Source: Tequatrovirus BCH953P2. From it: a stretch of DNA of 64,000 nt. Below, one piece after another: positions 38,492 through 41,416 of this stretch (the stretch's first letter is position 1; every line of letters starts with the position of its first letter). The notes under the pieces are model-generated. The model saw only the letters and a list, made by a program, of their open reading frames with translations, searched no databases and was not told the origin of the DNA. The translations under genes and the position numbers were made by a program. Where the stretch lies: sequence record OZ035785.1; one strand, given 5' to 3'.

Positions 38492-38622
38492 TTTTGTGAA
38501 AAAATTTTTTAAAAAGTTTTAGGGAATTCTAGGGTCAGGAGGGACAATTAAAAGGTAGGATAATATATTATAAAGGGTATAAACTAAATGATGCCCAGAG
38601 AGGCCCGGAAAGGCCTAGATAC

Positions 38623-38655
38623 CAAAAAGCCCCAACCTTTCGGCTGGGGCTAAGA
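38623..38655 (-). terminator. Terminator hairpin (repeat copy 1) after the internal-protein-like gene
   Basis: AGCCCCAACC-TTTC-GGCTGGGGCT with minus-strand T5 tail. Confidence 0.6.
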
Positions 38656-38658
38656 ATG

Positions 38659-39132
38659 TTATTTGATTTGTTTAGCAGACCAAATGCGGTCTTTAATAAT
38701 TTTTTGGATGTCTTCAACATATTCAAGAGAGTGAACATGTGGGTTATCTTTGAAACTATAAGCACGAGCTAGCTTTTGGCCTTCAGTTTTGATTATCAAA
38801 AGTTCTTTAAGAATTGCTTCATACCTAGAGATAATTCCTTTAGCAATATTTTTTTCTTGTGCTGCTTTAGGATCAGCCTTAGGAGCAGGTTTACCTGAAG
38901 CCTTTGCAAAAGCAGCTCCAGTAGCAACTAAACTTTTCCAAGCCATACTAACTGCATTCCCTGTAAATCCTTCGGCTTTCATATCACGAGCAAATTGGAA
39001 TCGTGATTCATCGGAAGCATCTTTATAGGAATATTTACCCGCGGCAATGGCAGCTTTTGCAACAGCTTGAATTTCAGTGCTAGATGCTTCATTTAACACC
39101 GCTTCATTTAAAAATTGAGCATATGATTTCAT
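38659..39132 (-). CDS. Internal-protein-like protein with capsid-targeting N-terminus
   Basis: 157 aa beginning MKSYAQFLNEA; late promoter TATAAATA (plus 39169-39176) upstream; bracketed by two near-identical terminator hairpins. Confidence 0.55.
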   Translation of the reverse strand: MKSYAQFLNEAVLNEASSTEIQAVAKAAIAAGKYSYKDASDESRFQFARDMKAEGFTGNAVSMAWKSLVATGAAFAKASGKPAPKADPKAAQEKNIAKGIISRYEAILKELLIIKTEGQKLARAYSFKDNPHVHSLEYVEDIQKIIKDRIWSAKQIK

Positions 39133-39168
39133 CTTATTTCCTGTTTTAATTCGTGGTTTTAATATACT

Positions 39169-39176
39169 TATTTATA
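39169..39176 (-). promoter_or_regulatory. Late promoter for the internal-protein-like gene
   Basis: Plus-strand TATTTATA 37 nt upstream of the 38659..39132 start, immediately after a terminator hairpin. Confidence 0.55.
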
Positions 39177-39179
39177 CTA

Positions 39180-39212
39180 AAAAGCCCCAACCTTTCGGTC
39201 GGGGCTAAGCCT
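39180..39212 (-). terminator. Terminator hairpin (repeat copy 2) closing the tRNA/stable-RNA transcription unit
   Basis: AGCCCCAACC-TTTC-GGTCGGGGCT with minus-strand T tract; near-identical to the copy at 38623-38655. Confidence 0.6.
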
Positions 39213-39254
39213 TGCGGCAACCTTGTCGGGGTTCCACCTGCTAAGGCAAGTGTT

Positions 39255-39420
39255 TGTGCGAAACGCCGGGACTTGAACCCGGTTATTAAGTAGTTGACGC
39301 TACTCAATATTTTTAAAAGGCCATATCTCGACCATATCCGAACGTTCCGTCAAAAACGCTACTCGGCTTACGGCAAAGATATTTCCTCGAATCGATAATT
39401 CGGTGCGCCGTTTCTGCTGT
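39255..39420 (-). ncRNA. Candidate small stable RNA with tRNA-like T arm
   Basis: No ORF across 39213-39493; minus-strand T-arm-like CCGGG-TTCAAGT-CCCGG (plus 39266-39282) with possible acceptor pairing about 150 nt upstream; T4 makes two small stable RNAs from its tRNA region. Confidence 0.25.
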
Positions 39421-39493
39421 GATGTAAGAGGACATCAATAAACGCAAAGATTATTAACGCAATTCCTTACTCAGGGAACATCAGTCCGACGAC

Positions 39494-40048
39494 TTACCGG
39501 TAGCGACCCGGTTTCTCATTTGGTATTTCAAATTGTGTAGATTTAGTATCTAATTTTTTAACTATGGAACTTATGTCATGAAAGAAAAACCATTCACCAT
39601 TTATATGGTCCTGATTATAAATGCTGTGCATATATTTTTCAAGTTCTACTGCATCCTGGGAATATCTAAATGATACTATTTTAAAACTTTTAAACGGTGA
39701 AAATGTATTTGCTGTTATAACTCTAACATCAGGTTCTATACTTCTTCCTATTTTATAATAATTAGGATTTGTAGTATCTACCATTATGTATACGAAAGCC
39801 TGTCGATAGCTTTTTTCTATATCAAATTCATCTTTAAATTTCAAAAGATTTAGGGCGGCAGTCCTACAAAATACTTTCCATTTTGACAAGCGTTTGGCTT
39901 CAGTCATAGAAAAGAATTTTTTCTTATCTGTTATTTTAAGAAAAGCAACATTTTCAATTAGTTCTTGTGTTATTTCAAAATTACCATGGTATATTAATCC
40001 AGCTTTTATAGCCAAATTAATTTGGTCCCAGTCTACATCACTTCTCAT
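39494..40048 (-). CDS. GIY-YIG-like (T5orf172-type) domain protein embedded beside the tRNA genes
   Basis: 184 aa; central FVYIMVDTTNPNYYKIGRS followed by E and YNQDHINGEWFFF resembles the GIY-YIG/T5orf172 core; T4 carries the homing endonuclease segB in this neighbourhood. Confidence 0.45.
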   Translation of the reverse strand: MRSDVDWDQINLAIKAGLIYHGNFEITQELIENVAFLKITDKKKFFSMTEAKRLSKWKVFCRTAALNLLKFKDEFDIEKSYRQAFVYIMVDTTNPNYYKIGRSIEPDVRVITANTFSPFKSFKIVSFRYSQDAVELEKYMHSIYNQDHINGEWFFFHDISSIVKKLDTKSTQFEIPNEKPGRYR

Positions 40049-40069
40049 AATATTATTCTCTCAATAATT

Positions 40070-40146
40070 TGGTCAGGGTGAAAGGATTCTAACCTTTAAC
40101 CTGCGGTTTAGAGGACCGCTACTCTATACAATTGAGTTACACCCCG
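40070..40146 (-). tRNA. tRNA-like element, anticodon UCU (Arg) if folded as tRNA; atypical
   Basis: Hand fold: acceptor CGGGGTG/CACCCTG, anticodon stem GCGGT/ACCGC, loop CCUCUAA, T arm AAAGG-TTAGAAT-CCTTT, 3-prime CCA encoded; D loop lacks GG and position 33 is C. Confidence 0.35.
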
Positions 40147-40272
40147 TAATTAGTTCACAGCAATACCTACTCCAACAATCAAGATGTCTTCACACGAAAT
40201 TAAGAGAAGTGTGATCAGTTCAACCCCTATAATCGCGTCAAGTAGATATTAATGTGACAACTGTCACAAGTT

Positions 40273-40347
40273 TGGCGGACATGCATGGATTCGAACCATG
40301 GACCAATTGATTAACAGTCAACTGCTCTACCACTGAGCTACACATCC
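40273..40347 (-). tRNA. tRNA-Asn (anticodon GUU)
   Basis: Hand fold of reverse complement GGATGTGTAGCTCAGTGGTAGAGCAGTTGACTGTTAATCAATTGGTCCATGGTTCGAATCCATGCATGTCCGCCA; loop CUGUUAA; CCA encoded. Confidence 0.7.
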
Positions 40348-40351
40348 AAAT

Positions 40352-40438
40352 TGGTGGGGAGTGGTGGAGTCGAACCACCCGAGTCGCAATGACAATGAAT
40401 TTACAGTCCACCCCGCTACCCCTACCGGATAACTCCCC
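40352..40438 (-). tRNA. tRNA-Tyr (anticodon GUA), long variable arm
   Basis: Acceptor GGGGAGT/ACTCCCC, loop CUGUAAA, long variable arm, T arm GGTGG-TTCGACT-CCACC, CCA encoded; 5-prime end lies in a C12 run. Confidence 0.6.
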
Positions 40439-40458
40439 CCCCCCCCTAATTCTTAATT

Positions 40459-40533
40459 TGGTGGCCCTGGGTGGAATTGAACCACCATCTGGCGATTATG
40501 AGTCGCTTGCTTGAACCTTCCAGCTACAGGGCC
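40459..40533 (-). tRNA. tRNA with CAU anticodon (Ile2 lysidine-type or Met)
   Basis: Acceptor GGCCCTG/CAGGGCC, anticodon loop CUCAUAA, T arm GGTGG-TTCAATT-CCACC, CCA encoded. Confidence 0.6.
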
Positions 40534-40534
40534 T

Positions 40535-40610
40535 TGGTGCTGATTGACGGAATCGAACCGCCGACCTTCTCATTACAAGTGAGTTGCTCTACCTACTGAG
40601 CTAAATCAGC
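40535..40610 (-). tRNA. tRNA-Thr (anticodon UGU)
   Basis: Acceptor GCTGATT/AATCAGC, D arm GCTC-AGTAGGTA-GAGC, loop CUUGUAA, CCA encoded. Confidence 0.7.
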
Positions 40611-40615
40611 AAAAC

Positions 40616-40705
40616 TGGCGGAGGCGATAGGATTTGAACCTATGAGTCGCCGGAGCGACTGCCGGTTTTCAAGACCGGTGCATTAAACCACTCTGCCACG
40701 CCTCC
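40616..40705 (-). tRNA. tRNA-Ser (anticodon UGA), long variable arm
   Basis: Acceptor GGAGGCG/CGCCTCC, anticodon stem CCGGT/ACCGG with loop CUUGAAA, long variable arm, CCA encoded. Confidence 0.75.
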
Positions 40706-40707
40706 AG

Positions 40708-40781
40708 TCTCCGCGGCAGGATTTGAACCTACGACATTCTGCTCCCAAAGCAGACGCTCTACCAAACTGAGCTACACGGAG
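40708..40781 (-). tRNA. tRNA-Pro (anticodon UGG)
   Basis: Acceptor CTCCGTG/CGCGGAG, anticodon stem TCTGC/GCAGA, loop UUUGGGA; CCA not encoded; 2 nt spacer to tRNA-Ser. Confidence 0.7.
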
Positions 40782-40791
40782 TAAATTAAAT

Positions 40792-40865
<74 letters not shown>

Positions 40866-40870
40866 AAATT

Positions 40871-40957
40871 TGGTGCGAGAAGTGGGACTCGAACCCACAA
40901 GGAAATCATTCCGCAGCATTTTAAGTGCTGTGCCTTTACCAATTTGACCATTCTCGC
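40871..40957 (-). tRNA. tRNA-Leu (anticodon UAA), long variable arm
   Basis: Acceptor GCGAGAA/TTCTCGC, anticodon stem CAGCA/TGCTG with loop CUUAAAA, long variable arm, CCA encoded. Confidence 0.75.
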
Positions 40958-40958
40958 G

Positions 40959-41031
40959 CTGGGAATAAAGGACTCGAACCTTTGCATCTAGCAGTCAAAG
41001 TGCTATGCCTTACCAACTTGGCTAATTCCCA
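40959..41031 (-). tRNA. tRNA-Gln (anticodon UUG)
   Basis: Reverse complement begins TGGGAATTAGCCAAGTTGGTAAGGCATAGCACTTTGACTGCTAG, agreeing with remembered T4 tRNA-Gln; CCA not encoded; 1 nt spacer to tRNA-Leu. Confidence 0.8.
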
Positions 41032-41128
41032 ATTATTAACAAAGGCTCTCAAACAAGAACCCTTGATGATAGAGGGTATTAATCAGTGCGGTATGAGTTA
41101 ATAATAACAAATAATTCTTAAAGCATAT

Positions 41129-41416
41129 TTACCATTTATGATGATACATACTTACGATGCATTCAAGACCTAAAGGATTCTTGAAAATATCATATTCAAG
41201 AGGACCTTTTTCTGTTTCAATAAAGAAATCAAAATTTACTGTATTAAATTTACGGTCTTCCTTTACTAATTTAACTTGAGAAGATGAACGGTCAATGTAA
41301 ACCTTTTCAACTTCAAAACATGTTAAAACGCCATAATCATCAATCAAGGCTTTAGCTGCGTCTTGATCATATTTATATCCATTTTCAATGGATGATACTT
41401 TAGCATAAAGAATCAT
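41129..41416 (-). CDS. Hypothetical protein
   Basis: 95 aa ORF downstream of the tRNA cluster. Confidence 0.4.
   Translation of the reverse strand: MILYAKVSSIENGYKYDQDAAKALIDDYGVLTCFEVEKVYIDRSSSQVKLVKEDRKFNTVNFDFFIETEKGPLEYDIFKNPLGLECIVSMYHHKW

What the first reader, a model, noticed from the sequence alone, without database searches (positions are those of the whole stretch)
39213..40048. GIY-YIG-like (T5orf172-type) gene plus 280-nt untranslated transcribed region beside the tRNAs
Seen in sequence: the 184 aa ORF has a central FVYIMVDTTNPNYYKIGRS...E motif resembling the GIY-YIG/T5orf172 core rather than an N-terminal GIY-YIG module. Downstream, 39213-39493 has no ORF, includes a T-arm-like CCGGG-TTCAAGT-CCCGG and ends at a terminator. 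Established: T4 has the homing endonuclease segB and two small stable RNAs in its tRNA region. Inference: a different endonuclease-like gene occupies the mobile-element slot here, and the untranslated region may encode stable RNAs.
Basis: partly seen in the sequence, partly recalled or inferred. Interest (0 to 1): 0.45.

Follow-up and report, generated by a model that had tools for sequence, protein, structure and literature searches.

The report
Selfish nuclease gene beside T4 rnaD/rnaC
In the tRNA cluster of this T4-like phage, a small, probably mobile nuclease gene sits directly upstream of the two stable RNAs (rnaD and rnaC) long known from phage T4, so each part is a known kind of thing, though this exact arrangement is uncommon.

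Summary
The window is a Tequatrovirus with its genes on the minus strand.

**The ORF.** ORF 39494-40048 (184 aa) passes the Pfam cut-offs for MUG113 and T5orf172. Its GIY-YIG-type core residues are invariant (Y87, Y98-K-I-G101, R109, E152). The AlphaFold2 model is confident (pLDDT 92) and matches T5orf172 proteins of T5-like phages over their full length.

**The "untranslated" stretch.** It is T4's own rnaD (39519-39402) and rnaC (39395-39257), 97-98% identical to T4, followed by the terminator at 39206-39183. The T-arm-like element is the 3' arm of rnaC. I show by covariation that rnaC is a cloverleaf-like RNA.

**Evidence that the ORF is a free-standing homing-endonuclease-type cassette:**
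- It is present in only about 14 of 763 related records.
- It is 94-96% identical to Gaprivervirus copies, while the backbone is about 80% identical.
- It starts 15-25 nt after a tRNA CCA in five genera.
- It takes its stop codon from whatever lies downstream; here that is 26 nt inside rnaD.
- Klebsiella relatives have a precise empty site.

Cleavage and homing are untested. My verdict is a new member of a known kind (T5orf172 homing endonuclease genes) plus already-known RNAs, of modest interest.

The parts
40070..40146 (-). tRNA-Arg(UCU), a variant form I call Arg'. It lies immediately upstream of the ORF and travels with it between Tequatrovirus and Gaprivervirus.
   Evidence: ARAGORN and Rfam tRNA at 60.7 bits. 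It has no blastn match to the T4 or Aplg8 tRNA-Arg and differs from VR7 at 1 of 77 positions. In Tequatrovirus records it is found only together with the ORF. It is non-canonical at positions 18, 33 and 56 (U18, C33, A56).
40049..40069 (-). Conserved 21-nt leader with a Shine-Dalgarno sequence (AAATTATTGAGAGAATAATATT-ATG), starting right after the tRNA's CCA.
   Evidence: The same leader (AATT(T)ATGAGnATAAnAnT) follows a tRNA CCA in VR7, VR26, ESh27, KpV477 and Muldoon.
39494..40048 (-). ORF184, a T5orf172/MUG113-family protein and putative free-standing homing endonuclease.
   Evidence: Pfam and phrog_5032 at 3e-59. AlphaFold2 pLDDT 91.9, pTM 0.86. BFVD matches at TM 0.68-0.74 to T5orf172 proteins. 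dN/dS about 0.11.
39824..40048 (-). N-terminal four-helix domain (residues 1-75). It has no family match and is presumed to be the nucleic-acid-recognition module.
   Evidence: Helices 7-15, 28-37, 42-47 and 50-73 in the model. The motif CRTAALNLLKFK is conserved. No Pfam hit. The whole domain is shared with homologues in T5-like phages.
39578..39802 (-). T5orf172 / GIY-YIG-like catalytic core (residues 83-157).
   Evidence: Invariant Y87, Y98-K-I-G101, S103, R109, E137, H141 and E152 across 17 homologues. The best matches among solved structures are the GIY-YIG nuclease Slx1, but they are weak (E about 0.8).
39520..40069 (-). The mobile module as delimited by comparison with three other contexts.
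   Evidence: VR26 shares window 39520-40147 and ESh27 shares 39521-40073, with different neighbours in each. The module ends without a stop codon of its own.
39402..39519 (-). rnaD (T4 species 2 RNA). Its first 26 nt are also the last 8 codons and the stop codon of ORF184.
   Evidence: Aligns end to end with T4 rnaD (NC_000866 71053-71171) with 2 differences. The consensus fold has a 5' hairpin, a closing stem and a variable apical hairpin, with 6 covarying pairs.
39257..39395 (-). rnaC (T4 species 1 RNA), a cloverleaf-like, tRNA-like stable RNA.
   Evidence: Differs from T4 rnaC at 4 of 139 positions. The minimum-free-energy fold has a z-score of -4.3. The consensus structure has 46 pairs, 23 of them with compensatory changes. 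95% of cells are paired, against about 45% when the partners are slid.
39266..39282 (-).
   Evidence: Helix 6 of the consensus, with CCGGG/CCCGG changing to CCUGG/CCAGG and CCAGG/CCUGG in other genera.
39183..39206 (-). Intrinsic terminator of the tRNA/rnaD/rnaC transcription unit.
   Evidence: A 10-bp stem with 7 G-C pairs followed by a T run. It is conserved in T4 and annotated as a terminator in Aplg8.
39614..39642 (-). Sigma-70-like promoter match (TTGAAA-17-TATAAT, 11 of 12) inside the ORF, about 95 nt upstream of rnaD. This is a weak lead only.
   Evidence: It is kept in VR7 and VR26, scores 11 of 12 in KpV477, and is degraded in ESh27 and Muldoon. It overlaps conserved codons (LEKYMHSIYN), so it may be a by-product of coding.

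Best explanation
The locus has two parts of different standing.

**(A) The RNA part.** 39519-39257 (minus strand) holds the T4 stable RNAs rnaD and rnaC, followed by their terminator. They are the conserved tail of the tRNA operon. rnaC is a tRNA-like cloverleaf. It has an acceptor-like closing stem, a long hairpin where the D arm would be, a 10-bp hairpin with an invariant CGUCAA loop, and a T arm. I infer that it is released from the precursor by the tRNA-processing enzymes. Its function remains unknown.

**(B) The ORF.** ORF184 is a compact free-standing homing-endonuclease-type gene of the T5orf172 branch of the GIY-YIG superfamily. It is a promoter-less and stop-less cassette: leader, Shine-Dalgarno sequence and ORF. 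It sits immediately 3' of a tRNA gene's CCA and reads on into whatever follows, here 26 nt into rnaD.

**Inferred mechanism.**
1. In a mixed infection the protein cuts tRNA-region DNA of a relative that lacks it.
2. Recombinational repair from the cassette-bearing genome then copies in the ORF together with its neighbours (tRNA-Arg', rnaD, rnaC).
3. This spreads that block within and between genera.

Because the gene lies inside a tRNA precursor, processing at the tRNA-Arg 3' end and the rnaD 5' end would cut its mRNA. That probably keeps expression low; this step is inference only.

**Shown here:** family membership, conserved catalytic-type residues, module boundaries, patchy distribution, an empty site, and cross-genus near-identity.
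**Inferred:** nuclease activity, the target site, and homing.
For: **Identity of the RNAs**
- T4 annotations and end-to-end alignments.
- 742 phage records carry rnaC, and 679 of them are 95-100% identical, including RB69.
- Covariation supports the rnaC fold.
- In Karamvirus, rnaC sits flush between tRNA-Trp and tRNA-Gly.

**Family of the ORF**
- Pfam MUG113 and T5orf172 above their cut-offs.
- Invariant Y87, YKIG98-101, R109 and E152.
- A confident model that matches T5orf172 proteins over their full length.
- T5orf172 genes are described as a homing-endonuclease family with glutamate-dependent nuclease activity (PMC10448857).

**Mobility signatures**
- Only 14 of 763 related records carry the ORF, and 15 records have at least 90% protein identity.
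- The cassette is 93.7-95.7% identical to Gaprivervirus VR7 and VR26, while the flanking syntenic genes are about 80% identical.
- The module boundaries are the same (39520/39521 and about 40070) next to three different right-hand neighbours.
- In Jiaodavirus, Kpn6N and UTI-K1 have tRNA-Arg and tRNA-Thr separated by 10 nt or less. KpV477 has the ORF inserted in that spacer, with ATTTA on both sides and its stop codon inside tRNA-Thr.
- Full-length homologues in T5-like phages also lie in tRNA clusters and overlap the 5' end of tRNA-Arg or tRNA-Lys.
- Truncated copies exist (68-aa and 55-aa fragments).
Against: - No nuclease activity, cleavage site or biased inheritance has been shown for any member of this subfamily.
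- The canonical GIY-YIG model does not reach significance (E=0.13). Similarity to solved GIY-YIG structures is weak (Slx1, E about 0.8).
- The protein lacks the Zn-finger (CapR, DUF723, DUF4397) DNA-binding repeats typical of characterised T5orf172 homing endonuclease genes. Its N-terminal domain has no known relatives.
- Strong purifying selection (dN/dS about 0.11) and retention next to tRNA-Arg(UCU) across genera at 55-59% identity could instead mean a useful, domesticated function.
- Within Tequatrovirus I found only a block replacement ([tRNA-His, tRNA-Arg, ORF116] replaced by [tRNA-Arg', ORF184]), not a clean insertion.
Confidence: 0.7

Rival explanations
1. ORF184 is a domesticated T5orf172 protein that no longer homes. 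It serves the phage in the tRNA region, for example as a DNA- or RNA-binding factor, as a recombination or amplification driver for tRNA cargo in the way recently shown for SegB, or as a counter-defence factor.
For: - dN/dS is about 0.11 in three comparisons.
- The same position, right after tRNA-Arg(UCU), is kept in four T4-like genera at 55-59% identity.
- T5orf172 domains have been co-opted before, as in CapR and Odn.
- SegB, another homing endonuclease of the tRNA cluster, promotes amplification of anti-defence tRNA genes (PMC13096335).
- Weak hits to the T5orf172 domain of defence proteins PD-Lambda-1 and PDC-S57.
Against: - The gene is absent from the great majority of close relatives, which do well without it.
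- It shows recent cross-genus transfer.
- The catalytic-type residues are all retained, which is not expected for a pure binding protein.
- Truncated copies occur.
Confidence: 0.2
2. ORF184 acts on RNA rather than DNA, as a tRNA- or precursor-processing or repair nuclease tied to tRNA-Arg and the rnaD/rnaC precursor.
For: - It is always embedded between tRNA or tRNA-like genes.
- It overlaps the 5' end of the downstream RNA gene.
- Its N-terminal domain is of unknown specificity.
Against: - Characterised T5orf172 and GIY-YIG enzymes are DNA nucleases (PMC2330249).
- The overlap is explained more simply by a stop-less cassette reading into its insertion site. The downstream partner differs in every lineage: rnaD, tRNA-Thr, tRNA-Arg, tRNA-Lys, a protein-coding gene.
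- Phages without the ORF keep the same tRNAs and rnaD/rnaC.
Confidence: 0.05
3. The 39213-39493 stretch is merely a 3' untranslated trailer of the ORF, or decayed tRNA remnants, with no product of its own.
For: - No Rfam family matches it.
- ARAGORN calls no tRNA there.
- The single-sequence fold of rnaD is no more stable than shuffled sequences (z = -0.8).
Against: - It is 97-98% identical to annotated, experimentally detected T4 rnaD and rnaC.
- rnaC is 95-100% conserved in 679 records and shows 23 compensatory pairs.
- The region exists unchanged in phages that lack the ORF.
Confidence: 0.02

Closest known systems
T4 SegB (GIY-YIG free-standing homing endonuclease of the tRNA cluster; PMC2330249)
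   Same: - It is a small nuclease-family gene wedged between tRNA genes of a T-even phage and missing from close relatives.
- Its neighbouring tRNA genes are co-inherited with it.
- SegB cuts at the 3' ends of tRNA genes, using the T-arm motif GGTTCRANTCC. ORF184 sits exactly at a tRNA 3' end.
   Different: - There is no detectable sequence relationship.
- The domain order is reversed: SegB has its GIY-YIG domain at the N terminus, while ORF184 has its T5orf172 core at the C terminus after a helical domain.
[quoted passage not shown]
- SegB's activity and homing are proven; ORF184's are not.
T5orf172 homing endonuclease genes of ICP1, T5-like and other phages (Barth et al. 2023, PMC10448857); Odn and CapR
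   Same: - The same Pfam domain with the conserved glutamate.
- Variable presence between isolates.
- Location at boundaries of genetic exchange ('HEG islands' that carry cargo).
   Different: - Those genes usually carry CapR, DUF723 or DUF4397 Zn-finger repeats and lie near terminase, ribonucleotide reductase or capsid genes.
- ORF184 has a four-helix N-terminal domain without Zn ligands and lives in tRNA arrays.
- That paper states that T4 has no T5orf172 genes. Here is one in the T4 genus.
ORFs of the tRNA regions of T5-like phages: BF23 ORF trn 2.12.1, and the RN29, My1, Stp1 and phiR2-01 homologues
   Same: - Full-length homology: 35-40% identity over both domains, TM 0.68-0.74.
- They also lie inside tRNA clusters, with the 3' end overlapping the next tRNA (tRNA-Arg UCU or tRNA-Lys).
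   Different: - They belong to a different virus family (Demerecviridae).
- There the ORF precedes tRNA-Arg rather than following it.
- All are uncharacterised.
T4 rnaC (species 1) and rnaD (species 2) stable RNAs
   Same: They are the same genes, in the same order, with the same terminator, at 97-98% identity.
   Different: In T4, rnaD abuts tRNA-Arg with a 1-nt spacer. Here the ORF184 cassette separates them and its reading frame ends inside rnaD. The rnaC T-loop is UUCAAGU here and UUCGAAU in T4.

Membership tests
T5orf172 (PF10544) / MUG113 (PF13455) | Profile match above the curated cut-off. | tested here: met
   MUG113 scores 38.0 bits against a cut-off of 22.3. T5orf172 scores 27.9 bits against a cut-off of 20. 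Both cover residues 85-155. All 16 database homologues carry both domains.
T5orf172 (PF10544) / MUG113 (PF13455) | Predicted fold like other family members. | tested here: met
   The AlphaFold2 model has pLDDT 91.9. Foldseek against BFVD gives E of 6e-11 to 1e-8 and TM 0.68-0.74 to proteins named as T5 Orf172 domain-containing or GIY-YIG nuclease family.
GIY-YIG nuclease superfamily | GIY...YIG motifs about 10-11 residues apart, then a conserved Arg and a downstream metal-binding Glu. | tested here: met
   V-Y87-I, then Y98-K-I-G101 (spacing of 11), R109 and E152 (in GEWF) are all invariant in 17 sequences. The assignment of roles to these residues follows I-TevI and is from general knowledge, not tested here.
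GIY-YIG nuclease superfamily | Significant match to the canonical GIY-YIG profile (PF01541) or to a solved GIY-YIG structure. | tested here: inconclusive
   PF01541 gives E=0.13 and 13.1 bits against a cut-off of 22.6. There is no PDB sequence hit, even with a profile. The top Foldseek PDB hits are repeatedly Slx1, but at E of 0.8-5 and probability of 0.66 or less.
GIY-YIG nuclease superfamily | Mg2+-dependent DNA cleavage. | not testable with these tools
   Needs purified protein and a cleavage assay.
Free-standing homing endonuclease gene (functional class) | Sporadic presence among otherwise collinear relatives. | tested here: met
   14 of 763 records cover the ORF. In the Klebsiella and Serratia group it is 7 of 179.
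Free-standing homing endonuclease gene (functional class) | A precise empty site in relatives, with discrete module boundaries. | tested here: met
   Kpn6N and UTI-K1 (empty) compared with KpV477 (occupied). The boundaries are the same in the window, VR26 and ESh27. In Tequatrovirus itself I saw only a block replacement.
Free-standing homing endonuclease gene (functional class) | Evidence of horizontal spread (cassette more similar than backbone). | tested here: met
   93.7-95.7% identity for the cassette against about 80% for flanking genes, window compared with Gaprivervirus VR7 and VR26.
Free-standing homing endonuclease gene (functional class) | Site-specific cleavage of the allele that lacks the gene, and super-Mendelian inheritance in co-infection. 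| not testable with these tools
   Needs in vitro cleavage mapping and phage crosses.
seg family (SegA-G of T4) | Sequence homology to Seg proteins, with an N-terminal GIY-YIG domain and a C-terminal DNA-binding domain. | tested here: not met
   hhalign of the family profile against SegB gives probability 0.1. tblastn of SegB against the window gives nothing below E=1.7. The domain order is reversed.
T4 rnaD / rnaC | Sequence identity and synteny with the annotated T4 genes (tRNA cluster, rnaD, rnaC, terminator). | tested here: met
   118 nt against 119 nt with 2 differences, and 139 nt against 139 nt with 4 differences. The terminator is shared.
T4 rnaD / rnaC | Accumulation as stable RNAs of about 120 and 140 nt in infected cells. 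| not testable with these tools
   Shown for T4 by Northern blot (PMC9697503), not for this phage.
tRNA (as a possible class for rnaC) | Match to tRNA covariance or heuristic models, including a D arm and a 7-nt anticodon loop. | tested here: not met
   Rfam tRNA gives no hit at E of 10 or less over 39257-39395, and ARAGORN calls nothing there. The consensus has a roughly 60-nt hairpin in place of the D arm and a 6-nt CGUCAA loop. The closing stem and T arm are tRNA-like, and some GenBank records call part of it tRNA-Lys or tRNA-Met.

The most novel reading that the evidence does not exclude
ORF184 may represent a distinct, compact lineage of T5orf172 endonucleases specialised for tRNA arrays. 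It would consist of a previously undescribed four-helix recognition domain plus the nuclease core, shared by T4-like and T5-like phages. It would insert exactly at tRNA 3'-CCA boundaries as a promoter-less, stop-less cassette and ferry tRNA and stable-RNA cargo (tRNA-Arg', rnaD, rnaC) between genera. That would make it a second, independently evolved counterpart of SegB. Its expression could be gated by tRNA-precursor processing, and like SegB it could reshuffle or amplify tRNA genes that counter tRNA-targeting host defences.
Probability: 0.3. Interest if true: 0.55.

Novelty: new member of a known kind. Interest (0 to 1): 0.33.

Why it matters
The RNA half of the finding is textbook T4 (rnaD and rnaC), so it adds no new object.

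Two things are still useful:

- **The ORF.** It shows that T5orf172-type homing-endonuclease genes, said to be absent from T4, do occur in the T4 genus, and in the same hyper-plastic tRNA region that hosts segB. Natural occupied and empty alleles are already available: KpV477 against Kpn6N, and the teqskov/REP2 group against Aplg8 or T4. Homing, target choice and co-conversion of tRNA cargo can therefore be tested directly. This is timely because phage tRNA clusters are now seen as counter-defence loci and SegB has been shown to remodel them.
- **rnaC.** The covariation-supported cloverleaf, with its invariant CGUCAA loop and near-total conservation across genera, gives a concrete structural handle on an RNA whose function has been unknown for fifty years.

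Tried and rejected
- **Rfam.** A scan of 38500-41300 at E of 10 or less found no family for rnaD or rnaC, so their identity had to come from homology to annotated T4 records.
- **PDB.** Sequence searches with the single protein and with the family profile found nothing.
- **NCBIfam.** No hit.
- **SegB.** hhalign of the family profile against SegB showed no relationship.
- **Wider protein search.** A profile re-search of the 5.8-billion-protein set added only four distant sequences. The exhaustive representative search found 2286 T5orf172-domain proteins, only 23 of them at E of 1e-10 or better.
- **PADLOC.** Only weak domain-level hits, to PD-Lambda-1 and PDC-S57. I did not read these as defence membership.
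- **Origin of tRNA-Arg'.** I considered that tRNA-Arg' plus the ORF came from T5-like phages and rejected it, because the T5-like tRNA-Arg sequences are unrelated.
- **ATACCA as a tRNA remnant.** I considered that the ATACCA before rnaD is a remnant of the T4-type tRNA-Arg 3' end. The same codons (F-E/D-I-P) are part of the ORF in ESh27 and KpV477, where no rnaD follows, so this is at most a 6-nt microhomology.
- **Internal promoter.** The sigma-70-like promoter inside the ORF (11 of 12) is not conserved in ESh27 or Muldoon, and the count of promoter-like sites in the region equals the chance expectation. I kept it only as a lead.
- **Late promoter.** A T4 late-promoter motif (TATAAATA) is not present upstream of the ORF or of rnaD. 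The nearest one, at 39169-39176, serves the next gene.
- **rnaD fold.** The single-sequence fold is not unusually stable (z = -0.8), and there is only modest covariation (6 pairs).
Full report
**Context.** The window is a Tequatrovirus, a member of the T4 genus. The 1.2 kb around the finding is 99.8% identical to phage teqskov and 99.5% identical to REP2 and REP3. Genes here run on the minus strand. Ten tRNA genes lie at 40070-41031, in the order Gln, Leu, Gly, Pro, Ser, Thr, Met, Tyr, Asn, then a 126-nt spacer, then Arg. They sit downstream of ipI-57B-57A-gene 1 homologues, as in T4.

**Checking the observation.**
- The 184-aa ORF lies at 39494-40048 and carries the motif FVYIMVDTTNPNYYKIGRS.
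- No real ORF lies in 39213-39493.
- The element CCGGG-TTCAAGT-CCCGG lies at 39282-39266.
- A strong intrinsic terminator lies at 39206-39183.

**The "untranslated transcribed region" is T4's rnaD and rnaC.**
- In T4 (NC_000866), tRNA-Arg (71173-71247) is followed after 1 nt by rnaD (species 2 RNA, 71053-71171) and then by rnaC (species 1 RNA, 70908-71046).
- Window 39526-39174 aligns to this stretch at 97% identity.
- End-to-end alignment places rnaD at 39519-39402 (118 nt, 2 differences) and rnaC at 39395-39257 (139 nt, 4 differences).
- Phage Aplg8, whose record annotates both RNAs and the terminator, is 98.4% identical over this stretch.
- Both RNAs are known from T4 but have unknown function (PMC3014915). 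They were detected by Northern blot as late RNAs (PMC9697503).
- Rfam has no family for either.

**Structure of rnaC.**
- The single-sequence fold is unusually stable (-50 kcal/mol, z = -4.3).
- I aligned eight homologues from Tequatrovirus, Karamvirus, Winklervirus and an unclassified Citrobacter phage.
- RNAalifold gives a cloverleaf-like consensus of 46 pairs, of which 23 show compensatory changes.
- 95.1% of cells are paired, against 38-46% when the 3' partners are slid. None of 500 shuffles reached any of the observed measures.
- The parts are a closing, acceptor-like stem with two conserved U-U mismatches, a roughly 60-nt hairpin where the D arm would be, a 10-bp hairpin with an invariant 6-nt loop CGUCAA, and a canonical T arm.
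- In Karamvirus the homologue sits flush between tRNA-Trp and tRNA-Gly.
- Some GenBank records annotate part of it as tRNA-Lys or tRNA-Met.
- It is not a tRNA by the Rfam or ARAGORN criteria.
- rnaC is 95-100% identical in 679 of 742 records, including RB69. That is far above backbone identity.

**Structure of rnaD.** rnaD has conserved ends, a 5' hairpin with one compensatory A-U to G-C change, a closing stem, and a variable apical hairpin that occurs in three sequence types. Only 6 pairs covary.

**The ORF belongs to the T5orf172 family.**
- Pfam MUG113 (2.6e-9) and T5orf172 (3.4e-6) both pass their cut-offs over residues 85-155. Canonical GIY-YIG does not (E = 0.13).
- PHROGs places the protein in phrog_5032, of unknown function, with weaker hits to "endonuclease" and "homing endonuclease" phrogs.
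- Seventeen homologues keep Y87, Y98-K-I-G101, S103, P106, R109, P118, E137, H141, E152 and F154 invariant. This is the GIY...YIG / Arg / Glu pattern.
- AlphaFold2 gives a confident two-domain model (pLDDT 91.9, pTM 0.86). Residues 1-75 form four helices, and residues 84-170 form an alpha/beta core.
- Among solved structures the best matches are repeatedly the GIY-YIG nuclease Slx1, but they are weak (E about 0.8).
- Among predicted viral structures the model matches T5orf172 proteins of T5-like phages and Aeromonas phage 44RR2.8t over their full length (TM 0.68-0.74, E down to 6e-11).
- The literature treats T5orf172 as a GIY-YIG subfamily of homing endonucleases. Nuclease activity depends on the conserved glutamate in at least one case, and the paper notes that T4 itself has none (PMC10448857).
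- The ORF is unrelated to segB.

**Evidence that the ORF is a mobile cassette.**

1. *Patchy distribution.* Of 763 related records, only 14 cover the ORF. Copies with at least 90% protein identity occur in 10 Tequatrovirus records and 5 Gaprivervirus records. Copies at 78% identity occur in 3 Mosigvirus-like records.
2. *Recent cross-genus transfer.* Against Gaprivervirus VR7 and VR26 the cassette is 93.7-95.7% identical, while the adjacent syntenic genes are about 80% identical. Sequence further out is unrelated.
3. *Constant module boundaries.* VR26 shares exactly window 39520-40147. ESh27 shares 39521-40073, then a different gene, and then rnaD.
4. *Same position in every T4-like lineage.* The ORF begins 15-25 nt after a tRNA's CCA, behind a conserved leader AATT(T)ATGAGnATAAnAnT. 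The tRNA is tRNA-Arg(UCU) in Tequatrovirus, Gaprivervirus, Jiaodavirus and Muldoonvirus, and tRNA-Met in the Mosigvirus ESh27.
5. *No stop codon of its own.* The reading frame runs into whatever lies downstream:
   - 26 nt into rnaD here and in VR7;
   - 10 nt into tRNA-Thr in KpV477;
   - 2 codons on in ESh27;
   - 43 codons on in VR26, where rnaD and rnaC are deleted;
   - into tRNA-Arg in the T5-like phages RN29 and My1, and into tRNA-Lys in BF23.
6. *A clean empty site.* Klebsiella phage Kpn6N has tRNA-Arg...CCA-AATTTAAATT-GCCGG (start of tRNA-Thr). KpV477 has about 535 bp inserted in that 10-nt spacer, with ATTTA on both sides.
7. *Decayed copies.* 55-68-aa N-terminal fragments occur.

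Within Tequatrovirus the event is a block replacement rather than a simple insertion. Aplg8-type phages have [tRNA-His, tRNA-Arg, ORF116] between the Asn-side spacer and rnaD. The window has [tRNA-Arg', ORF184] there. T4 has [tRNA-Ile, segB, tRNA-Arg]. This fits the known picture of the tRNA region as a hot spot of homing-driven exchange (PMC2330249).

**Mechanism, and what is inferred rather than shown.** By analogy with SegB and the characterised T5orf172 enzymes, the most likely mechanism has two steps. First, the protein makes a break in tRNA-region DNA of a co-infecting phage that lacks the cassette. Second, recombinational repair copies in the cassette together with its neighbours.

SegB recognises the T-arm motif GGTTCRANTCC and cuts at tRNA 3' ends. 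ORF184's invariable position at a tRNA 3' end makes a comparable target plausible, but the target is unknown.

Because the gene lies between tRNA-Arg' and rnaD in one precursor, processing should sever its mRNA. Cleavage at the rnaD 5' end would remove the last 8 codons and the stop codon. This would be a built-in limit on expression, and it is inference only.

**Caveats that keep a domesticated function alive.**
- Purifying selection is strong (dN/dS 0.11).
- The gene has been linked to tRNA-Arg(UCU) for a long time.
- It lacks the usual Zn-finger DNA-binding repeats.
- The N-terminal domain is unclassified.

SegB itself has recently been shown to benefit its phage by amplifying anti-defence tRNA genes (PMC13096335).

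**Verdict.** One half (rnaD and rnaC) is already known. The other half is a new member of a known kind: a T5orf172 homing-endonuclease-type gene in a genus where T4 itself has none, annotated only as "hypothetical protein" in the public records. Interest is modest. The most useful outcomes are the ready-made occupied and empty allele pairs for testing homing, and the covariation-supported tRNA-like fold of rnaC.

Noticed in passing
window 40070-40146 (-): The tRNA-Arg(UCU) next to the ORF deviates from near-universal tRNA positions. It has C33 instead of U33, U18 instead of G18 and A56 instead of C56 (T-loop UUAGAAU). It still scores 60.7 bits. Among Tequatrovirus records it occurs only together with ORF184. 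Its T-arm no longer fits SegB's core motif GGTTCRANTCC.
   Followed up: partly
window 38628-39206 (-): A 157-aa ORF (38659-39132, phrog_2280, function unknown) is bracketed by two nearly identical terminator hairpins (39183-39206 and 38628-38651). A late-promoter motif TATAAATA lies at 39169-39176. T4 has a single terminator and no such ORF, so this looks like another inserted cassette built on a duplicated stem-loop.
   Followed up: partly
window 40435-40446: There is a run of 12 C on the plus strand (G12 on the coding strand) at the 5' edge of tRNA-Tyr. Aplg8 has G4 at the same place. It is the only G or C homopolymer of 8 or more in the 64 kb. It could be a slippage-prone tract or a sequencing or assembly artefact.
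   Followed up: partly
window 39257-39395 (-) and loci L016-L021: rnaC is 95-100% identical in 679 of 742 phage records across genera whose backbones are only about 80% identical. Its 6-nt loop CGUCAA is invariant even in the most distant homologues. In Karamvirus it occupies a tRNA position, between tRNA-Trp and tRNA-Gly.
   Followed up: yes
window 39614-39642 (-): A sigma-70-like promoter match (TTGAAA-17-TATAAT, 11 of 12) lies inside the 3' part of ORF184, about 95 nt upstream of rnaD. It could restore transcription of rnaD and rnaC downstream of the insertion, but it overlaps conserved codons and is not kept in all homologues.
   Followed up: partly
L008 (phage VR26) 1704-2486: VR26 carries tRNA-Arg' and the ORF but has lost rnaD and rnaC. 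The ORF runs on for 43 extra codons into the trailer that normally follows rnaC. The two stable RNAs are therefore dispensable in at least one lineage.
   Followed up: partly
L019 (Erwinia phage Virsaitis27) 826-910: Immediately upstream of the rnaC homologue there is an unannotated tRNA-like sequence of about 80 nt (GGGAGTT...AGCTCCCACCA, with acceptor-type ends).
   Followed up: no
L011 (BF23 tRNA region): The tRNA region of the T5-like phage BF23 is annotated with several 'tRNA-like' and 'stable' RNAs of unknown function, next to a homologue of ORF184. This parallels the T4 arrangement of rnaC and rnaD.
   Followed up: no
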